Both the position numbers and the translations under genes were made by a program. Positions 7,185 to 13,548 of a DNA stretch of 30,750 nucleotides are shown here, piece by piece; within the stretch, counting starts at the first letter, position 1; each line of letters begins with the position of its first letter. Source of the DNA: a virus. Below the pieces are notes generated by a model. It was not told the DNA's origin and searched no databases. It worked only from the letters and a program-made list of their open reading frames with translations. The stretch covers positions 1 through 30,750 of IMG/VR virus record IMGVR_UViG_3300045988_021200; one strand, 5' to 3'.

Positions 7185-7508
7185 ATGAACGATAGAGAAA
7201 AGTGCCTGAGAGAGGCATGTGAGATTGTGAACGGAGCACGAAATCAGACCTATGGAAACGTGGAGGATAACTTCCAGAAGATAGCGAACTTGTGGAGCTG
7301 CTATCTCGGGTTCGGAGTAGGACCTATCGACGTAGCAATGATGATGGTGCTTCTAAAGGCGGCAAGAGTAAGCACCGGAACAACCCACTTGGACAACTTT
7401 GTCGATGTGGCAGGATATGCCGCATGTGCTTATGAGATGGGAAATGATAGAGACTGGGAAGGAGAAAGCAATGAAAGCAACAGCGACGACATTGGCAAAG
7501 TTGGTTAA
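7185..7508 (+). CDS. Conserved phage protein (DUF6378-like, tentative)
   Basis: ATG 7185 follows AGGAG. The sequence GARNQTYGNVEDNFQKIANLWSCYLG...IDVAMMMVLLKAARV...HLDNFVDVAGYAAC matches my memory of that family. Confidence 0.5.
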   Translation: MNDREKCLREACEIVNGARNQTYGNVEDNFQKIANLWSCYLGFGVGPIDVAMMMVLLKAARVSTGTTHLDNFVDVAGYAACAYEMGNDRDWEGESNESNSDDIGKVG

Positions 7509-7686
7509 GACCATGCGGAAGGCGGAAGGCGTAACGCAACCAGAGCTTGCTGAGATGGTGTATTCGGACGTTAGTTCGATTTGCCGCTGGGAGCACGGCG
7601 AAAGCATCACGTGGCACAAATTCATTGAGATTGCTGGGGTACTTGGCTACACGGTAGACATTGAAGTGAAGGGAGGTGCAGAGTAA
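7471..7686 (+). CDS. Small XRE-type HTH protein
   Basis: ATG 7471 follows GGAAGGAG. MRKAEGVTQPELAEMVYSDVSSICRWEHGES is an HTH. 71 aa. Confidence 0.65.
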   Translation: MKATATTLAKLVKTMRKAEGVTQPELAEMVYSDVSSICRWEHGESITWHKFIEIAGVLGYTVDIEVKGGAE

Positions 7687-7847
7687 TGTTTCGAGATTAC
7701 GGGCTGATGTGGTGTGAACTGAGAGCGCAAATGAAAGAACTGCAGGAGAAGAAGGATTCTATCGAACTTGTGGTTCTGATTGCGGTCATGGACCTAATCG
7801 AATACCTCGAAGAAGAGGGTGATTTGGAGGCGAAGGATGAGCTATAA
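7686..7847 (+). CDS. 53-aa hypothetical protein (below the ORF-track cutoff), paralog of 9201..9359
   Basis: The junction is TAATG with GGAGG at 7672..7676. It translates to MFRDYGLMWCELRAQMKELQEKKDSIELVVLIAVMDLIEYLEEEGDLEAKDEL. Confidence 0.55.
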   Translation: MFRDYGLMWCELRAQMKELQEKKDSIELVVLIAVMDLIEYLEEEGDLEAKDEL

Positions 7848-8544: not shown

Positions 8545-8898
8545 ATGGAATGGAATCCAATTGTCGGTGGAGACCTTGGTGATGTACCAATATTCGAAGA
8601 TGTTCTATTCACAATAATTGATGAAGTTACAGGTGAAGCGTATGTGATATACGATACAATTGACCCAAGCCTTGCGAAGGACGGGATTGTGGCTTTTAGT
8701 GAGTGGACTCTCAACAGAACGGAAAAAGTTATAGCGTGGGCTGACCTTCCCGAACCGTTCAAGCCGAAAGATTGCAACATCTGCGCATACCGGAGGGAGT
8801 GGACAGACGAATTCGGTGACAATTGGTTTGAGTGTGAATTGCTCCAATGTGATGTTCCCCCAAACGGCAAGCTGAACGATTGCCCACTGAATAGATAG
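8545..8898 (+). CDS. Hypothetical protein
   Basis: A GGGAGG RBS is present. 117 aa with a Cys-containing C-terminus. Confidence 0.65.
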   Translation: MEWNPIVGGDLGDVPIFEDVLFTIIDEVTGEAYVIYDTIDPSLAKDGIVAFSEWTLNRTEKVIAWADLPEPFKPKDCNICAYRREWTDEFGDNWFECELLQCDVPPNGKLNDCPLNR

Positions 8899-9160
8899 TT
8901 ACAAGTCGAGTAATTACCATTTTCGTGAGGTAACGAAAGTGGTTCGTGATGAGTTACAAGTTGAGTTGTTCGTTGCGTAATTACACAAGATTACACAACA
9001 ATTACACAAGAATTACACAAGACTATTGATGTATTAGTTGATGTATTAGTTGATGTATTAAGTCAAGAAAAGTCAAGGAATTAGTCAAGGAAATGCGTTC
9101 AAACCTTGAAATATAAGCGTTTGAAGCGTGCTAGGAAGTTATAAGTTAGTCAAAGGTTAA
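8897..9160. repeat. Noncoding iteron hub with at least four direct-repeat families
   Basis: AGTTACAAGT(C/T)GAGT occurs at 8897 and 8952. ATTACACAA occurs at 8980, 8990, 9001 and 9012. TTGATGTATTAG occurs three times in tandem (9026..9061). AGTCAAG occurs at 9061, 9071 and 9083, plus AGTCAAAG at 9149. No ORF spans the region. Confidence 0.9.
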
Positions 9161-9200
9161 GTTTTAAAAAGTGTTAAATTAGCGTTAGGAGGTGTGAATA

Positions 9201-9359
9201 ATGCTCAGAGATTATGAGTCGATGTGGGGCGAACTGAGAAGTCAACTTAAAGAGCGAGTACGAATGGAAAATATAAGCGAGAAGGAAGAGGACCCAGAAT
9301 CATACTATTTATGGGTAGTGATAAAGATGATGGATAACATGGAATATTTCGATGTGTAA
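9201..9359 (+). CDS. 52-aa hypothetical protein (below the ORF-track cutoff), paralog of 7686..7847
   Basis: GGAGGTG lies 7 nt upstream. It translates to MLRDYESMWGELRSQLKERVRMENISEKEEDPESYYLWVVIKMMDNMEYFDV. Confidence 0.6.
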   Translation: MLRDYESMWGELRSQLKERVRMENISEKEEDPESYYLWVVIKMMDNMEYFDV

Positions 9360-9371
9360 GGAGGATAGCAT

Positions 9372-9593
9372 ATGTGGGTCGATATTGATGATGTGATAGC
9401 AGAATTAGAACGATTGAGAAGAAAAACCGAAGAAGAATTTGACGGAGAAGAGGATTCGACCATTAAGACAATGCTCTACGGAACGTTAGTGGGGTACAGC
9501 AAAGTTGAAATAATGCTGTGCAAGCTGGAAACAGAAGAGTATCGGAAGCAAGGATTGGAACATATCAGAAGTTTGAGGGAGGAACAAAAGTGA
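9372..9593 (+). CDS. Hypothetical protein (coiled-coil-like, acidic)
   Basis: An AAGGAGG RBS is present. 73 aa. Confidence 0.65.
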   Translation: MWVDIDDVIAELERLRRKTEEEFDGEEDSTIKTMLYGTLVGYSKVEIMLCKLETEEYRKQGLEHIRSLREEQK

Positions 9594-11241: not shown

Positions 11242-11679
11242 ATGACAGAATATGCACAAATTGCGGATGCGAGGCTCCGGAAGTTGGGCGAGGCGGAATG
11301 GGAAATTAAATCTTGTATGCAGCGGATAGAAGAACTGGAGAATGTAGCTCAATGTTGTGGGTCTTTGAACATCACCGACAAGGTGCAGAATTCTGTCACC
11401 GGTAACAAGATGGAGGATGCTGTCGTGGAACTGCTGGAAGAACAGGAGCGATTAAGAACGGTTGCTTCTAACTGGGTGCAGCTCAAAAGAGCTATAATAT
11501 CGGAGCTTGAATCAATCAATCCAACTTATAGAGACGTCTTGACACGAAGATACATTCTTAAGCAAAGCACGGAAGAGGCGGCGAAAGAGTTAAACTACTC
11601 GGAATCGCACACCAAACGTCTCAAAAGGCAAGCGTTGGAATGCCTCGGAAGAGAAATTGCAAATCATGATACCAGATGA
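11242..11679 (+). CDS. ArpU/RinA-like late transcriptional activator (sigma-70 region-4-like HTH)
   Basis: The C-terminus YRDVLTRRYILKQSTEEAAKELNYSESHTKRLKRQALECL is a sigma region-4-type HTH. It sits upstream of the packaging module. A GGAGG RBS is present. Confidence 0.7.
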   Translation: MTEYAQIADARLRKLGEAEWEIKSCMQRIEELENVAQCCGSLNITDKVQNSVTGNKMEDAVVELLEEQERLRTVASNWVQLKRAIISELESINPTYRDVLTRRYILKQSTEEAAKELNYSESHTKRLKRQALECLGREIANHDTR

Positions 11680-11756
11680 TACTTTCCTTTATGCTATTAT
11701 GTATGTGGAACATAAGCAGTCCTTTCTCCAAGAATAAAATGAGGAATAGTCGGGAG

Positions 11757-11783
11757 CGACCGCCGAAAGGCGGTTGTTTTCTT
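11757..11783 (+). terminator. Rho-independent terminator after the late activator
   Basis: Stem ACCGCC (11759..11764), loop GAAA, stem GGCGGT (11769..11774), then TGTTTTCTT. Confidence 0.7.
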
Positions 11784-11804
11784 GCAGGAATTCTCAAAAG
11801 TATA

Positions 11805-11833
11805 TGGCAATCCACAGCAATCATTGGTATAAT
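11805..11833 (+). promoter_or_regulatory. Candidate extended -10 promoter for the lipoprotein gene
   Basis: TGGTATAAT spans 11825..11833 and fits TGnTATAAT. A weak -35, TGGCAA, lies 17 nt upstream. Confidence 0.5.
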
Positions 11834-11872
11834 CACATTGAATATTTCTTTTATAATCGAAAGGGGAAAACA

Positions 11873-12286
11873 ATGAGAAAGAAAATTATTGCGCTGCTTA
11901 TGGTTGCCATGGTTGCAACGTTAGCCGGATGCGGTTCTTCCGGAACGAAGGAAACAAAGAAGGCGGAAGAAAAAAAGCCAACCTATGAATCTGTGTACAA
12001 GGAGTACAGCCAGAAGATGAAGGATGCTACACCGGGTCTGATTGAAGAGTACAAGAAAGATGCTGAGGGTGTATCTGACATAAACAAACTGGCAAACATC
12101 AGCGCAAAGAAAACAGAAAAGCTTGCAAACATCTGTGCAAAGGGCGGAAAGAGACTCGCCGCAATCCACACAAAAGAAAACGACGATGAAGATAAGTACA
12201 ATGAGTGGATGAACAAGCTGACTGATGTATATCAGGATGAAGCACAAAAAATAACCGATGCATACCAAGACAGTGTGCTTGGATAG
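11873..12286 (+). CDS. Secreted lipoprotein, function unknown
   Basis: MRKKIIALLMVAMVATLAGC carries a signal peptide and the lipobox L-A-G-C. AAAGGGGAAAA lies upstream. There is an internal KLANISAKK/KLANICAKG repeat. Confidence 0.85.
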   Translation: MRKKIIALLMVAMVATLAGCGSSGTKETKKAEEKKPTYESVYKEYSQKMKDATPGLIEEYKKDAEGVSDINKLANISAKKTEKLANICAKGGKRLAAIHTKENDDEDKYNEWMNKLTDVYQDEAQKITDAYQDSVLG

Positions 12287-12294
12287 AACAAAAA

Positions 12295-12330
12295 ATAGCC
12301 GGGGCGTTAAATCGTTCCGGCTATTTTATT
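12295..12330 (+). terminator. Rho-independent terminator 1 after the lipoprotein gene
   Basis: Stem ATAGCCGG (12295..12302) pairs with CCGGCTAT (12317..12324), followed by TTTATT. Confidence 0.7.
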
Positions 12331-12334
12331 AGAT

Positions 12335-12357
12335 GCCGCCGAGAGGCGGTTTTTTTA
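12335..12357 (+). terminator. Rho-independent terminator 2
   Basis: GCCGCC, loop GAGA, GGCGGT, followed by TTTTTTT. Confidence 0.8.
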
Positions 12358-12372
12358 TTGCAGAAGGAGAAG

Positions 12373-13548
12373 ATGATGAACGTTCAGCAGGTCAAAATTG
12401 AAAAGGTAAAACCATACGACAAGAACCCGAGAAAGAACAAAGCGGCGGTAGACTACGTGGCAAATTCGATTAAAGAATTCGGATTCCAGCAGCCAATCGT
12501 AGTTGATAAGGACATGGTCGTGATTGCAGGGCACACCCGGCTGAAAGCTGCGAAAAAGCTCAAATTAAAGGAAGTTCCTGTAGTTATTGCTGACAATCTT
12601 ACAGAAGAGCAGGTGAAAGCGTATCGCCTAGCAGACAACAAGACTGCGGAAAAGGCGGAATGGGACTTCGATTTGTTAACCGATGAACTTCTCAGCCTTC
12701 AGGAATTGGATTTCGACATGGAGCAGTTCGGGTTCGACTTCGATTTCAGCGAGGATGGAGAGGTCGTCGAAGATGAAAGCTGGGAAGCAGAAGTGCCGGA
12801 GGAGCCAATATCCCAGAGAGGTGACATATGGGTGCTTGGTCGGCACAGGCTTATGTGCGGGGACAGCACGGATGCGGCTGATGTTGCGTTGCTGATGGAT
12901 GGCAACAAAGCGGACATGCTTCTCACAGACCCGCCTTACAACGTTGATTACACCGGAAAGGCGAGCGAACTTGAAACAAAGAAAATCGAAAACGACAAGA
13001 TGGAGGATTCTGCATTTTAAGACTTTCTGACAAGTGCATTCTCGAATGCAGAAGAGAACATGAAGGCTGGAGGGGTTTTCTATATTTGGCACGCAGGACT
13101 CGAAGGTCCAAACTTTATGACCGCCTGCAAAAGGGTGGGTTTCCAAGTGCGCCAGATTCTTATATGGAACAAGGACTCCTTGGCAATGGGAAGACAAGAT
13201 TACCAATGGAAACATGAACCCTGCCTGTATGGGTGGAAAGACGGAGCAAGCCACCTCTGGGCATCAGATAGAAAGCAGACCACAGTATTGGACTTTGAGA
13301 AGCCGCAGAAAAACAGCCTGCACCCTACGATGAAGCCAATAAAACTGTTCGACTACCAAATCAAGAACAACACCAAGGGTGACGATATTGTCCTTGACCT
13401 ATTTGGAGGAAGCGGAACCACCATCATGGCTGCTGAGCAGAACGGCAGGAGAGGGTTTGTCATGGAATACGACCCGAAGTTCGTAGACGTAATTGTAGAC
13501 CGATGGGAGCAGTTCACCGGCATGAAGGCAAAGAAAATTAAAGAGTAA
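12373..13548 (+). pseudogene. ParB-like nuclease domain fused to an N6/N4 DNA methyltransferase, interrupted by an in-frame TAA at 13018..13020
   Basis: The N-terminal part has a ParB-N pattern (YDKNPRKN...IAGHTRLKAAKKL) and motif IV, DPPYN. The downstream ORF 13060..13548 is in the same frame and carries motif I, LDLFGGSGTT. Translation across the gap reads ...EDSAF*DFLTSAFSNAEENMKAGGVFYIWH, which is continuous with the family. Confidence 0.8.

What the first reader, a model, noticed from the sequence alone, without database searches (positions are those of the whole stretch)
8897..9160. A 260-bp noncoding hub packed with at least four distinct direct-repeat families
No ORF spans the gap between gene 8545..8898 and the next RBS at 9190. 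Instead there are:
- A 15-mer, AGTTACAAGT(C/T)GAGT, at 8897 and 8952.
- ATTACACAA four times at 10-11-bp spacing (8980..9020).
- TTGATGTATTAG three times in perfect tandem (9026..9061).
- AGTCAAG(G/A)AA three times at 10-12-bp spacing (9061..9090), plus a diverged copy at 9149.
- A 7-bp-stem hairpin, TTCAAAC...GTTTGAA (9097..9127).

Several different repeat families side by side, each phased near one helical turn, suggests a nucleoprotein assembly site for more than one DNA-binding protein. Possibilities are the true or a second replication origin, a partition or centromere-like site, or a middle-gene regulatory switch. The phage encodes a ParB-N-domain protein at 12373 and at least six small HTH proteins. 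None of these standard features accounts for the region on its own.
Basis: seen in the sequence. Interest (0 to 1): 0.65.

Follow-up and report, generated by a model that had tools for sequence, protein, structure and literature searches.

The report
Repeat-rich noncoding cassette in gut phages
The gap is a real, conserved but dispensable noncoding cassette shared by a group of uncultured gut phages; it is most likely a control region for a few small early genes, not a replication origin or partition site, and its function is still untested.

Summary
Observation confirmed. Window 8899-9200 has no conserved ORF and holds the densest short tandem repeats in the 30.7-kb window (29 near-helical 8-mer self-matches vs 0.07 +/- 0.37 in shuffles). 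Interpretation mostly not supported. The same element occurs in about 40 metagenomic or viral contigs at one syntenic position, always co-directional and ending in an RBS. It follows at least three unrelated replication-initiator modules. Two of those initiator genes carry their own internal iterons, and the window's are absent from the gap. The ParB_N protein is a DNA methyltransferase. Array copy numbers vary from 0 to 4, even between phages with identical flanks. Collinear relatives lack the arrays, the core or the whole element. The constrained part is a 3' core (9101-9152; 93.5% identity vs 62.5% at neighbouring third-codon positions) plus a leader with RBS. The core co-occurs with the small genes downstream (11/13 vs 1/10 loci). 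Best reading (about 0.4): an accessory, factor-dependent internal promoter and leader with upstream tandem operator arrays. It has no sigma-A consensus and the binding factor is unknown. Rivals are a recombination-prone spacer, an RNA-level element and a secondary origin. No transcript or binding data exist, so function remains inferred.

The parts
8897..8914 (+). 5' motif, copy 1 (AGTTACAAGTCGAGTAAT). It overlaps the last two bases of the stop codon of the upstream 117-aa gene. Relatives mostly have AGTTGCATGTTGMGTAAT.
   Evidence: The motif is present directly after the upstream stop codon in most element-bearing loci, including those where an HNH gene replaces the 117-aa gene.
8916..8943 (+). 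Optional 11-bp-stem hairpin, part of a 26-bp palindrome (ACCATTTTCGT-GAGGTA-ACGAAAGTGGT). It lies in the insert bracketed by the two 5' motif copies.
   Evidence: It is present in about 15 loci (10 share the identical version) and absent from most others. In L110 and L150 the arms extend to 12 bp. It has no T-run, so it is not an intrinsic terminator.
8952..8988 (+). 5' motif, copy 2, then a 7-bp-period run (AGTTACA AGTTGAG TTGTTC GTTGCGT). The run ends in the near-palindrome TTGCGTAATTACACAA (8973-8988).
   Evidence: (D4, D5, I2).
8979..9022 (+). Array 1: (A)ATTACACAAS, 4 copies, 10-11 bp period.
   Evidence: Relatives have 0-4 copies, with variants ATTACGCAAC and ATTACTCAAG.
9026..9061 (+). 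Array 2: TTGATGTATTAR, 3 copies, exact 12-bp period.
   Evidence: Relatives have 0-4 copies. The unit sequence is nearly invariant across lineages. L010 and L039 differ by exactly one unit despite 100% identical flanks.
9061..9092 (+). Array 3: AGTCAAGRAA, 3 copies, 10-12 bp period.
   Evidence: Relatives have 0 to about 3 copies. In L043, L110 and L119 it is replaced by AAGCGAAAGCGAAAAA repeats.
9101..9130 (+). Core block A: AAACCTTGAAATATAAGCGTTTGAAGCGTG. It contains direct repeats TTGAA (twice) and AAGCGT (twice).
   Evidence: Blocks A and B are 93.5% identical (median) in the unbiased set. In L153 both AAGCG copies changed together to AAGTG.
9131..9135 (+). Five-base variable segment between the two conserved blocks (CTAGG here). 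It behaves like a spacer.
   Evidence: Substitutions cluster here (6 in 5 columns, P about 0.04).
9136..9152 (+). Core block B: AAGTTATAAGTTAGTCA. It contains TATAAG (9140-9145), which is TATAAT in L022 and L140. This is the candidate -10 region of a promoter without sigma-A consensus.
   Evidence: No sigma-A consensus geometry was found.
9153..9200 (+). Leader: a variable spacer plus GYGTTARATKA repeats (9171-9192) ending in the RBS GGAGG (9188-9192). The ATG of the 52-aa gene is at 9201.
   Evidence: Relatives have 1-3 leader units, so the core-to-RBS distance steps through 71, 81 and 91-93 nt. The leader is joined to at least 6 different first-gene families.
9201..9593 (+). Small genes p52 (9201-9359) and p73 (9372-9593), which come and go together with the core in relatives.
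   Evidence: 11/13 vs 1/10 loci; Fisher P = 6e-4; adjacency is a confound.

Best explanation
The gap is the 5' control region of a small accessory gene cassette inserted into the long early operon of a temperate Firmicutes-type phage.

Inferred layout: blocks A and B (9101-9152) form an internal promoter that host sigma-A RNA polymerase cannot use unaided. Block A would be the factor or -35 site, the five variable bases the spacer, and block B with TATAAG the -10 region. A conserved untranslated leader with a strong RBS follows. The tandem arrays and palindromes upstream (8897-9092) are head-to-tail and dyad operator sites, each about one helical turn long. They would modulate that promoter, and slippage changes their number quickly without changing their helical phase.

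Shown here: the repeats, their conservation and modularity, the fixed orientation and position, the strong constraint on the core, the dispensability, the co-occurrence with the downstream small genes, and the independence from the replication module.

Inferred only: that the core is a promoter, that the arrays bind proteins, and which proteins. Because the sites stay invariant while phage proteins diverge, a shared factor, possibly a host one, is the better guess.
For: (1) In all element-bearing loci (about 27 non-redundant, plus the IMG/VR set) the element has one orientation. It ends in a conserved leader with GGAGG directly before a start codon, whatever the downstream gene is (at least 6 families).

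(2) The conservation pattern is a 30-nt block, 5 variable bases, then a 17-nt block containing TATAAG/TATAAT. In the unbiased DUF1064-anchored set, blocks A and B are 93.5% identical. The adjacent conserved gene is 62.5% identical at third-codon positions and 90% at positions 1 and 2.

(3) The core persists without any arrays in L066, L083 and L017/L151, so the arrays are modulators and the core is the basic unit.

(4) The phage's early promoter P_R is a perfect TTGACA-17-TATAAT, but the gap has no sigma-A consensus. That is what a temporally controlled, factor-dependent promoter would look like.

(5) There is documented precedent. Gram-positive temperate phage Ltr activators bind 2-4 short direct repeats upstream of the terS promoter, which gave no reporter expression without the phage activator (PMC3753634).

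(6) Blocks A and B co-occur with the small genes p52, p84, p73, F12 or F47 directly downstream: 11 of 13 loci against 1 of 10 without.

(7) No conserved ORF, no Rfam family and no covarying RNA structure.

(8) Array units are 10-12 bp, so copy-number change keeps the helical face.
Against: - There are no transcript, TSS or binding data.
- The best -35/-10-like pair (TTGAAG 9121, TATAAG 9140) has a 13-nt spacer, and the -10 lacks the final T in 21 of 23 sequences.
- No match to a known alternative-sigma consensus could be established.
- No cognate binding protein was identified. HTH71 (7471-7686) always co-occurs, but its predicted recognition helix varies while the sites do not. CI/Cro operators share no words with the element.
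- There is no terminator upstream, so downstream genes can be read from P_R anyway. Relatives do without the element.
- Co-loss of the element and the adjacent small genes may only reflect adjacency.
- High conservation could partly come from homogenisation by recombination between co-infecting phages.
Confidence: 0.4

Rival explanations
1. The gap is a slippage- and recombination-prone spacer at a module junction with no dedicated function of its own. Tandem units expand and contract by slippage. The shared sequence serves only as the homology at which related phages exchange flanking genes, and that exchange keeps it homogeneous.
For: - Copy number differs between phages with identical flanks.
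- Every part can be lost: arrays (L066), core (L145, L150), block B (L143), or everything (L141, L146, L152, L154).
- Deletion junctions fall at internal direct repeats (L145: AGTCAAGGA|TTAAG).
- Flanking gene families switch exactly at the element's edges.
- An HNH homing-endonuclease-like gene sits next to it in L016, L056 and L095.
Against: - Blocks A and B are far more conserved than neighbouring third-codon positions (93.5% vs 62.5%).
- Variation is concentrated in a 5-nt segment instead of being spread evenly.
- Unit sequences, above all TTGATGTATTA, are the same across lineages whose flanking genes are only 45-60% identical.
- Homogenisation alone does not explain the fixed orientation and the fixed link to an RBS.
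Confidence: 0.22
2. The element works at the RNA level. It would be an untranslated, C-poor leader or spacer within the early transcript whose repeated motifs bind an RNA-binding protein (a sponge or translational control), or which protects the untranslated stretch from premature termination or decay.
For: - All repeat families are on one strand, and the + strand is strongly C-poor (A108 T94 G68 C32).
- The + strand RNA folds somewhat better than shuffles (z = -2.5).
- The AGUCAAGGAAU units contain CAAGGA, which resembles a CsrA-type GGA motif. This resemblance is recalled from my own knowledge and was not tested.
- The element is transcribed in any case if P_R transcription reads through, because no terminator lies upstream.
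Against: - No Rfam match.
- The consensus fold is -2.99 kcal/mol with zero compensatory pairs.
- The GGA-containing array is replaced by GGA-free repeats in L043, L110 and L119.
- Copy number from 0 to 4 argues against a defined RNA architecture.
Confidence: 0.12
3. The gap is a secondary or auxiliary replication origin, or a replication-related cis site such as a fork-arrest site. It would resemble the noncoding, repeat-rich ori/PER elements of dairy streptococcal and lactococcal phages or SPP1 oriR.
For: - Several direct-repeat families at about one helical turn sit next to an A+T-rich stretch.
- The location is just downstream of the replication and recombination genes.
- There is precedent in the 302-bp noncoding ori of phage Sfi21 (PMC6356513) and in the intergenic SPP1 oriR (PMC6316719).
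- A secondary origin need not be essential, which would fit the element's dispensability.
Against: - The same element follows three unrelated initiator modules.
- Two of those initiator genes carry internal iterons in the classical position. The window's iterons are absent from the gap, unlike SPP1 oriL/oriR.
- The constrained part is the RBS-proximal core, not the arrays.
- The arrays can be absent altogether.
- The region is not the most A+T-rich part of the window.
Confidence: 0.1
4. The gap is a partition or centromere-like site bound by the ParB_N-domain protein.
For: Tandem 10-12 bp direct repeats resemble ParR- or omega-type centromeres (own knowledge). A ParB_N domain is encoded at 12358.
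Against: - The ParB_N domain is the N-terminal part of a DNA methyltransferase. PF01555 lies in the next ORF, and the two are fused into one ORF in L016.
- The phage has an integrase and a CI/Cro switch, and no ParA/ParM-type gene was seen among the ORFs annotated.
- Relatives that keep the element lack the methyltransferase region (L010, L039), and others show the reverse.
Confidence: 0.02

Closest known systems
Ltr/RinA/ArpU/Alt-type activator-dependent promoters of Gram-positive temperate phages (PMC3753634)
   Same: Short direct repeats (2-4 copies) lie just upstream of a promoter that host RNA polymerase does not use alone. The region is a portable block whose downstream sequence differs between phages. 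The genome type is the same, and this window encodes a DUF1492/sigma70_r4 Ltr-type protein at 11242-11679.
   Different: - The Ltr sites lie immediately distal to the activator gene and in front of terS. This element lies 2-3 kb upstream of the Ltr gene, in front of small early genes.
- It has three or more different arrays instead of one.
- It is dispensable.
- Relatives lacking the element keep the Ltr gene, and L010/L039 keep the element without it.
Noncoding repeat-rich origins of dairy phages (Sfi21 302-bp ori/PER element; DT1 cro-ori region) (PMC6356513)
   Same: A noncoding stretch of about 300 bp in the early region, after the replication genes, containing several direct and inverted repeats and conserved among related phages.
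   Different: - The element is not tied to one replication module.
- The initiator genes here have their own internal iterons.
- The arrays are optional.
- The most constrained part is an RBS-proximal core.
- Origin or PER activity was not tested.
SPP1 oriL/oriR (PMC6316719)
   Same: The window's organizer gene carries internal iterons like oriL inside gene 38. An intergenic second site with direct repeats exists in SPP1 (oriR).
   Different: oriR carries the same gp38-binding repeats as oriL. The gap shares no motif with the organizer's iterons.
Morons: independent accessory transcription units inserted between phage genes
   Same: Presence or absence as a unit (element plus 1-3 small genes) between conserved neighbours in otherwise collinear phages. 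The unit has its own putative control region.
   Different: There is no terminator at the cassette's end, no sigma-A promoter, and the control region is unusually long and repeat-laden. A textbook moron is present elsewhere in the window (11804-12350).
Tandem head-to-tail operator arrays (ParR/parC, omega heptads, OmpR/PhoB-family boxes). Own knowledge, used as a lead only.
   Same: Contiguous direct repeats of 10-12 bp without spacers, in one orientation, upstream of a promoter-like block.
   Different: No RHH or winged-helix protein has been assigned. The sequences match none of the consensus sites I could recall (DnaA, LexA, cre, WalR, PhoP), and these comparisons were made by eye only.

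Membership tests
Iteron-type phage replication origin bound by the phage initiator | The iterons are specific to, and co-vary with, the cognate initiator or replication module. | tested here: not met
   The same element follows three unrelated initiator modules. Array presence and copy number show no relation to initiator type.
Iteron-type phage replication origin bound by the phage initiator | A second origin shares the initiator-binding repeats of the first, as SPP1 oriL and oriR do. | tested here: not met
   The organizer's internal iterons (GGACGTCC three times; ATAGGTTAGGTGAGG three times; 6157-6248) have no copy in the gap.
Iteron-type phage replication origin bound by the phage initiator | Retained in all replication-competent relatives (for a sole origin). 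| tested here: not met
   Collinear relatives lack the arrays, the core or the whole element. Their viability is not known.
Iteron-type phage replication origin bound by the phage initiator | Supports replication or amplification in cis, or gives a PER phenotype when cloned. | not testable with these tools
   Needs a plasmid replication or interference assay in the unknown host.
Partition (centromere) site with ParB/ParR-type binder | A cognate partition NTPase and centromere-binding protein are encoded, and the element lives as a plasmid. | tested here: not met
   ParB_N belongs to an N6/N4 methyltransferase. An integrase and a CI/Cro switch are present. No ParA/ParM-type gene was seen among the ORFs annotated.
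Structured noncoding RNA / riboswitch / known RNA family | Match to a curated covariance model, or a conserved secondary structure with compensatory changes. | tested here: not met
No Rfam hit at gathering score or at E<=10 beyond noise. RNAalifold gives -2.99 kcal/mol with 0 compensatory pairs.
Sigma-A (sigma-70-type) promoter | -35 and -10 hexamers at 16-18 nt spacing, with A at position 2 and T at position 6 of the -10. | tested here: not met
   Searches found nothing above 8/12 in the gap on either strand, while P_R scores 12/12.
Activator-dependent phage promoter with upstream direct repeats (Ltr/Alt-like) | Direct repeats lie upstream of a weak or non-consensus promoter, at a fixed position and orientation before the regulated genes. 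| tested here: met
   Orientation and RBS linkage are invariant, and the arrays lie within about 200 nt upstream of the conserved core.
Activator-dependent phage promoter with upstream direct repeats (Ltr/Alt-like) | A cognate activator is identified, and transcription depends on it and on the repeats. | not testable with these tools
   No activator was assigned. The HTH71 recognition helix varies while the sites are invariant. The Ltr gene and the element occur independently. Reporter and EMSA assays are needed.
Protein-coding gene or small ORF | A conserved reading frame. | tested here: not met
   Only chance ORFs of 21-31 aa. The 10- and 11-bp units shift the frame. The 12-codon ORF inside the core loses its start or gains stops in L008, L052 and L062 (read directly).

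The most novel reading that the evidence does not exclude
The element is a previously undescribed kind of phage noncoding cassette. Several different tandem binding-site arrays sit in a compact landing pad whose copy numbers evolve by slippage within closely related phages. The arrays would recruit or titrate one or more host DNA-binding (or RNA-binding) factors. That could tune an internal promoter in an enhancer-like way, or sequester a host regulator or defence factor during early infection.
Probability: 0.12. Interest if true: 0.7.

Novelty: new variant of a known kind. Interest (0 to 1): 0.35.

Why it matters
What remains is a well-delimited, strongly constrained yet dispensable noncoding cassette specific to a lineage of uncultured human-gut phages. 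The samples are ENA human-gut cohort assemblies and contigs labelled human gut metagenome. Control of temporal gene expression in such phages is essentially unstudied. A portable module with a non-sigma-A promoter-like core and rapidly variable operator arrays would be a simple entry point to it. It also provides a 46-nt DNA signature for recognising this phage group. The practical lesson for annotation is that in this phage type the origin should be sought inside the DnaD-like organizer gene, not in the largest repeat-rich gap.

Tried and rejected
- GenBank phage searches with the DNA (near and distant modes) and with the p117 and HTH71 proteins found no relatives. TerL reaches only about 57% identity to Streptococcus and Clostridium phages.
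- The genome-contig scan with two TTGATGTATTA units gave only chance hits in unrelated phyla. The host therefore stays unidentified, and integrase contigs and a tRNA scan gave nothing either.
- CI/Cro operator sharing was tested. A 14-mer is shared between the window's immunity region and the L012/L095 elements, seen by eye. But no phage shares more than chance 8-10-mers between its own immunity region and its own element. Rejected.
- HTH71 as the binder: it always co-occurs, but its recognition helix varies while the sites are invariant. Only L012 and L095 pair a variant helix with a variant 5' motif, which is one event. Not supported.
- p117 as the binder: it looks very acidic by eye (no pI was computed), it is replaced by an HNH gene or absent in some element-bearing loci, and it has no Pfam or PHROG hit. 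Rejected.
- A small peptide in the core (TTG..TAA, 12 codons) is not conserved. Rejected.
- Comparisons with sigma-H, sigma-54, ECF, Bacteroidetes-type promoters, DnaA box, LexA box, cre, WalR/PhoP boxes, CsrA and Chi were made by eye against consensus sequences from memory.
- My first conservation estimate used loci found through an exact 17-mer inside the core, so it was biased. I redid it on the DUF1064-anchored set.
- One script timed out, one failed on a missing file and one returned nothing because of an over-strict filter.
- I did not use the heavy protein-database, structure-prediction or fold-search tools, because no protein near the gap emerged as a credible binder.
Full report
**1. 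The observation.**

Window 8899-9200 lies between a 117-aa gene (8545-8898, "p117") and a 52-aa gene (ATG at 9201, GGAGG at 9188-9192). It has no ORF of 40 aa or more.
- the 15-mer at 8897 and 8952;
- ATTACACAAS, four copies (8980-9021);
- TTGATGTATTAR, three copies (9026-9061);
- AGTCAAGRAA, three copies (9061-9092), plus a diverged copy at 9148;
- a 7-bp inverted repeat at 9098-9104 / 9119-9125.

Repeat density is far beyond chance. There are 29 tandem 8-mer self-matches at 9-13 bp spacing, against 0.07 +/- 0.37 (maximum 4) in 2000 dinucleotide-preserving shuffles. It is the highest value in the window. Outside the gap the motifs occur at no more than the chance rate.

- an 11-bp-stem hairpin, part of a 26-bp palindrome, at 8916-8943;
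- the near-palindrome TTGCGTAATTACACAA at 8973-8988;
- direct repeats within the 3' part;
- a leader repeat, GYGTTARATKA, that runs into the RBS.

**2. Genomic context.**

The window is a temperate, Firmicutes-type siphophage. In order it carries:
- an integrase (1074-2195, minus strand) and a CI-like repressor;
- a perfect sigma-A early promoter, TTGACA-17-TATAAT, at 2691-2719, facing a divergent one, then a Cro-like gene;
- Rad52-like, NinB-like and SSB genes, and a DnaD-like replisome organizer (5787-6530; phrog_8489);
- DUF6378, a 71-aa XRE-type HTH protein ("HTH71", 7471-7686), DUF1064, small genes and p117;
- the gap;
- small genes, then a DUF1492/sigma70_r4 (Ltr-type) gene (11242-11679) and a lipoprotein moron with its own promoter and terminators;
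- a ParB_N plus N6/N4 DNA methyltransferase, the terminase subunits, the portal gene and the other structural genes.

These assignments rest. All genes from 2751 onward are on the + strand, and no terminator-like site precedes the gap. The gap therefore sits inside a roughly 9-kb early transcription unit. GenBank phages hold no relative at the DNA level, and none for p117 or HTH71. The same proteins occur in ENA assemblies of human-gut cohorts.

**3. The element is a family.**

Pattern scans recovered about 27 non-redundant loci with a homologous element. A separate search anchored on DUF1064, and therefore blind to the element, gave 24 close collinear IMG/VR loci plus 40 distant ones.

The layout is always the same and always co-directional with the genes:
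- the stop codon of the upstream gene, then the 5' motif AGTTRCAWGTYGMGTAAT (1-3 copies);
- sometimes an insert of about 55-60 bp carrying the 26-bp palindrome;
- ATTACNCAAS, 0-4 copies;
- TTGATGTATTAR, 0-4 copies;
- AGTCAAGGAA, 0 to about 3 copies, replaced by AAGCGAAAGCGAAAAA repeats in three loci;
- block A, AAACCTTGAAATATAAGCGTTTGAAGCGTG;
- five variable bases;
- block B, AAGTTATAAGTTAGTYA;
- a variable spacer, then GYGTTARATGA (1-3 copies) ending in GTTAGGAGG, then the start codon.

The first downstream gene belongs to at least six families and the upstream gene to four.

**4. What is constrained and what is not.**

Array copy number changes fast. L010 and L039 are 100% identical over 400 nt upstream and 600 nt downstream, yet differ by one 12-bp unit. 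L009 has 2/2 copies against 4/4 in L010, with 99.5% identical upstream sequence.

All upstream arrays are missing in L066, L083 and L017/L151, where the core directly follows a coding region.

In the unbiased set, blocks A and B are 93.5% identical (median). The adjacent, well-conserved DUF1064 gene is 62.5% identical at third-codon positions and 90% at positions 1 and 2. Variation is concentrated in the 5-nt segment between the blocks.

My earlier estimate was inflated, because those loci were found through an exact 17-mer inside block A. The whole 68-nt core is about as conserved as the DUF1064 gene (85% vs 86%).

The TTGATGTATTA unit is essentially invariant across lineages whose flanking genes are only 45-60% identical. 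In L153 both AAGCG copies in block A changed together to AAGTG.

**5. Dispensability.**

Element status among the 23 distinct close collinear IMG/VR contigs (organizer 80-100% and DUF1064 73-98% identical to the window):

| Status | Contigs | Loci |
|---|---|---|
| Full element | 12 | |
| Core only | 1 | L151 |
| Part of the core lost | 3 | L145 and L150 (arrays kept, blocks A and B lost); L143 (block B lost) |
| Only the 5' motif or palindrome left | 2 | L144, L149 |
| Nothing left | 5 | L141, L146 (L147 is its duplicate), L152, L154, L163 |

The distant DUF1064 phages (39-57% identity) have no comparable gap. Whether those relatives are viable is unknown.

Blocks A and B co-occur with the small genes p52, p84, p73, F12 or F47 directly downstream. 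These genes are present in 11 of 13 loci with both blocks, against 1 of 10 without (Fisher P = 6e-4). Adjacency alone could cause this.

**6.

*Origin.* The element follows three unrelated initiator modules. The window's organizer gene contains its own iterons: GGACGTCC three times at an 11-bp period, and ATAGGTTAGGTGAGG three times (6157-6248). L013's different DnaD-like gene contains five iterons of about 21 bp. An origin inside the initiator gene is the arrangement of SPP1 oriL in gene 38. SPP1's second, intergenic origin carries the same gp38-binding repeats (PMC6316719). Here the organizer's iterons have no copy in the gap.

*Partition.* The ParB_N domain belongs to a methyltransferase, and the phage integrates.

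*Structured RNA.* There is no Rfam match. The consensus fold is -2.99 kcal/mol with no compensatory pair. The whole-gap fold is only modestly better than shuffles (z = -2.5 on the + strand and -1.8 on the - strand), and most of that comes from the optional palindrome.

*Coding.* No conserved frame exists.

**7. Most likely mechanism.**

The fixed orientation, the invariable junction to a leader with a strong RBS and the block / variable-spacer / block pattern containing TATAAG all point one way. So do the persistence of the core without arrays and the co-occurrence with the small downstream genes. Together they fit an internal promoter plus leader that heads an accessory gene cassette, with upstream arrays acting as operator sites.

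The host clearly reads canonical sigma-A promoters, because P_R scores 12/12. The gap has nothing better than 8/12 on either strand. The best pair is TTGAAG, 13 nt, TATAAG. If the core is a promoter, it must depend on an activator or on another sigma factor.

A precedent of this kind is documented for Gram-positive temperate phages. Ltr-family activators bind 2-4 direct repeats upstream of promoters that are otherwise silent (PMC3753634). This element differs from that precedent in four ways:
- It is not next to the Ltr gene.
- It occurs independently of the Ltr gene.
- It has several array types.
- It is dispensable.

I could not assign the trans-acting factor. HTH71 is present in all 22 loci that have enough upstream sequence, but its predicted recognition helix varies while the sites do not. 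CI/Cro operators are unrelated to the element. p117 looks acidic by eye and is dispensable for the element. Invariant sites across phages whose proteins have diverged suggest a shared factor, possibly a host one. This last step is inference only.

**8. Rivals and verdict.**

| Reading | Confidence |
|---|---|
| Internal promoter and leader with operator arrays | about 0.4 |
| Functionless slippage- and recombination-prone junction kept similar by exchange | about 0.22 |
| RNA-level role of the C-poor untranslated stretch | about 0.12 |
| Auxiliary origin or replication-related site | about 0.1 |
| Partition site | about 0.02 |
| Something not considered | remainder |

The finding is real and well delimited. 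I class it as a new variant of a known kind and score its interest as moderate to low.

Noticed in passing
window 6157-6248 (inside gene 5787-6530): The DnaD-like replisome-organizer gene contains two iteron arrays: GGACGTCC three times at an 11-bp period, and ATAGGTTAGGTGAGG three times (a TAGGT 5-mer period). This is the most likely phage replication origin, by analogy with SPP1 oriL inside gene 38. L013's unrelated DnaD-like gene has five iterons of about 21 bp at L013:6400-6506.
   Followed up: partly
window 867-956: Tandem 10-mers (TAGTATGCAC about four times; ACCAGTGCAT about twice) lie between a 198-aa HTH gene and the integrase gene, followed by a strong terminator-like hairpin at 997-1024. 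They may be integrase arm-type sites or the attP region.
   Followed up: no
window 7686-7847 and 9201-9359: The 53-aa and 52-aa proteins are paralogs (about 41-45% identity between the two families in relatives). One lies after HTH71 and the other directly after the element. Function unknown; both are acidic and look helical.
   Followed up: partly
window 12358-13548: The ParB_N domain (12358-13020) and the N6_N4 methyltransferase domain (13060-13548) are in two separate ORFs here and in L001, but appear as one ORF of about 346 aa in L016. The window's gene may be split by a frameshift or nonsense mutation.
   Followed up: no
window 11756-12350: A textbook moron follows the Ltr-type gene: a terminator-like hairpin (about 11756-11780), a sigma-A-like promoter with an extended -10 (11804-11833), a lipoprotein-like gene (11873-12286) and two terminator-like hairpins (about 12290-12350).
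   Followed up: no
L016:about 5880-6298, and also L056 and L095: In three relatives an HNH/AP2-type homing-endonuclease-like gene replaces p117 directly upstream of the element.
   Followed up: no
L010 and L039 (24-kb contigs): These are deletion derivatives. The element and one small gene are followed after about 590 bp by a terS that is 100% identical to the window's. The whole middle region, including the Ltr-type gene and the methyltransferase, is missing. They may be defective prophages, or evidence that late genes can be expressed without the Ltr gene.
   Followed up: partly
window 2659-2673 and 2685-2700: The immunity region holds operator-like palindromes: GCAACAAAAAGTTGC, and TAATGTTGACATTA overlapping the -35 of P_R. 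The 14-mer ACAAAAAGTTGCAA recurs in the 5' motif of the L012 and L095 elements but not in the window's own element. This is unexplained and probably coincidental.
   Followed up: partly
L153:about 4470-4500: Both AAGCG direct-repeat copies in block A are changed to AAGTG in the same locus. This suggests two equivalent half-sites or gene conversion between them.
   Followed up: no
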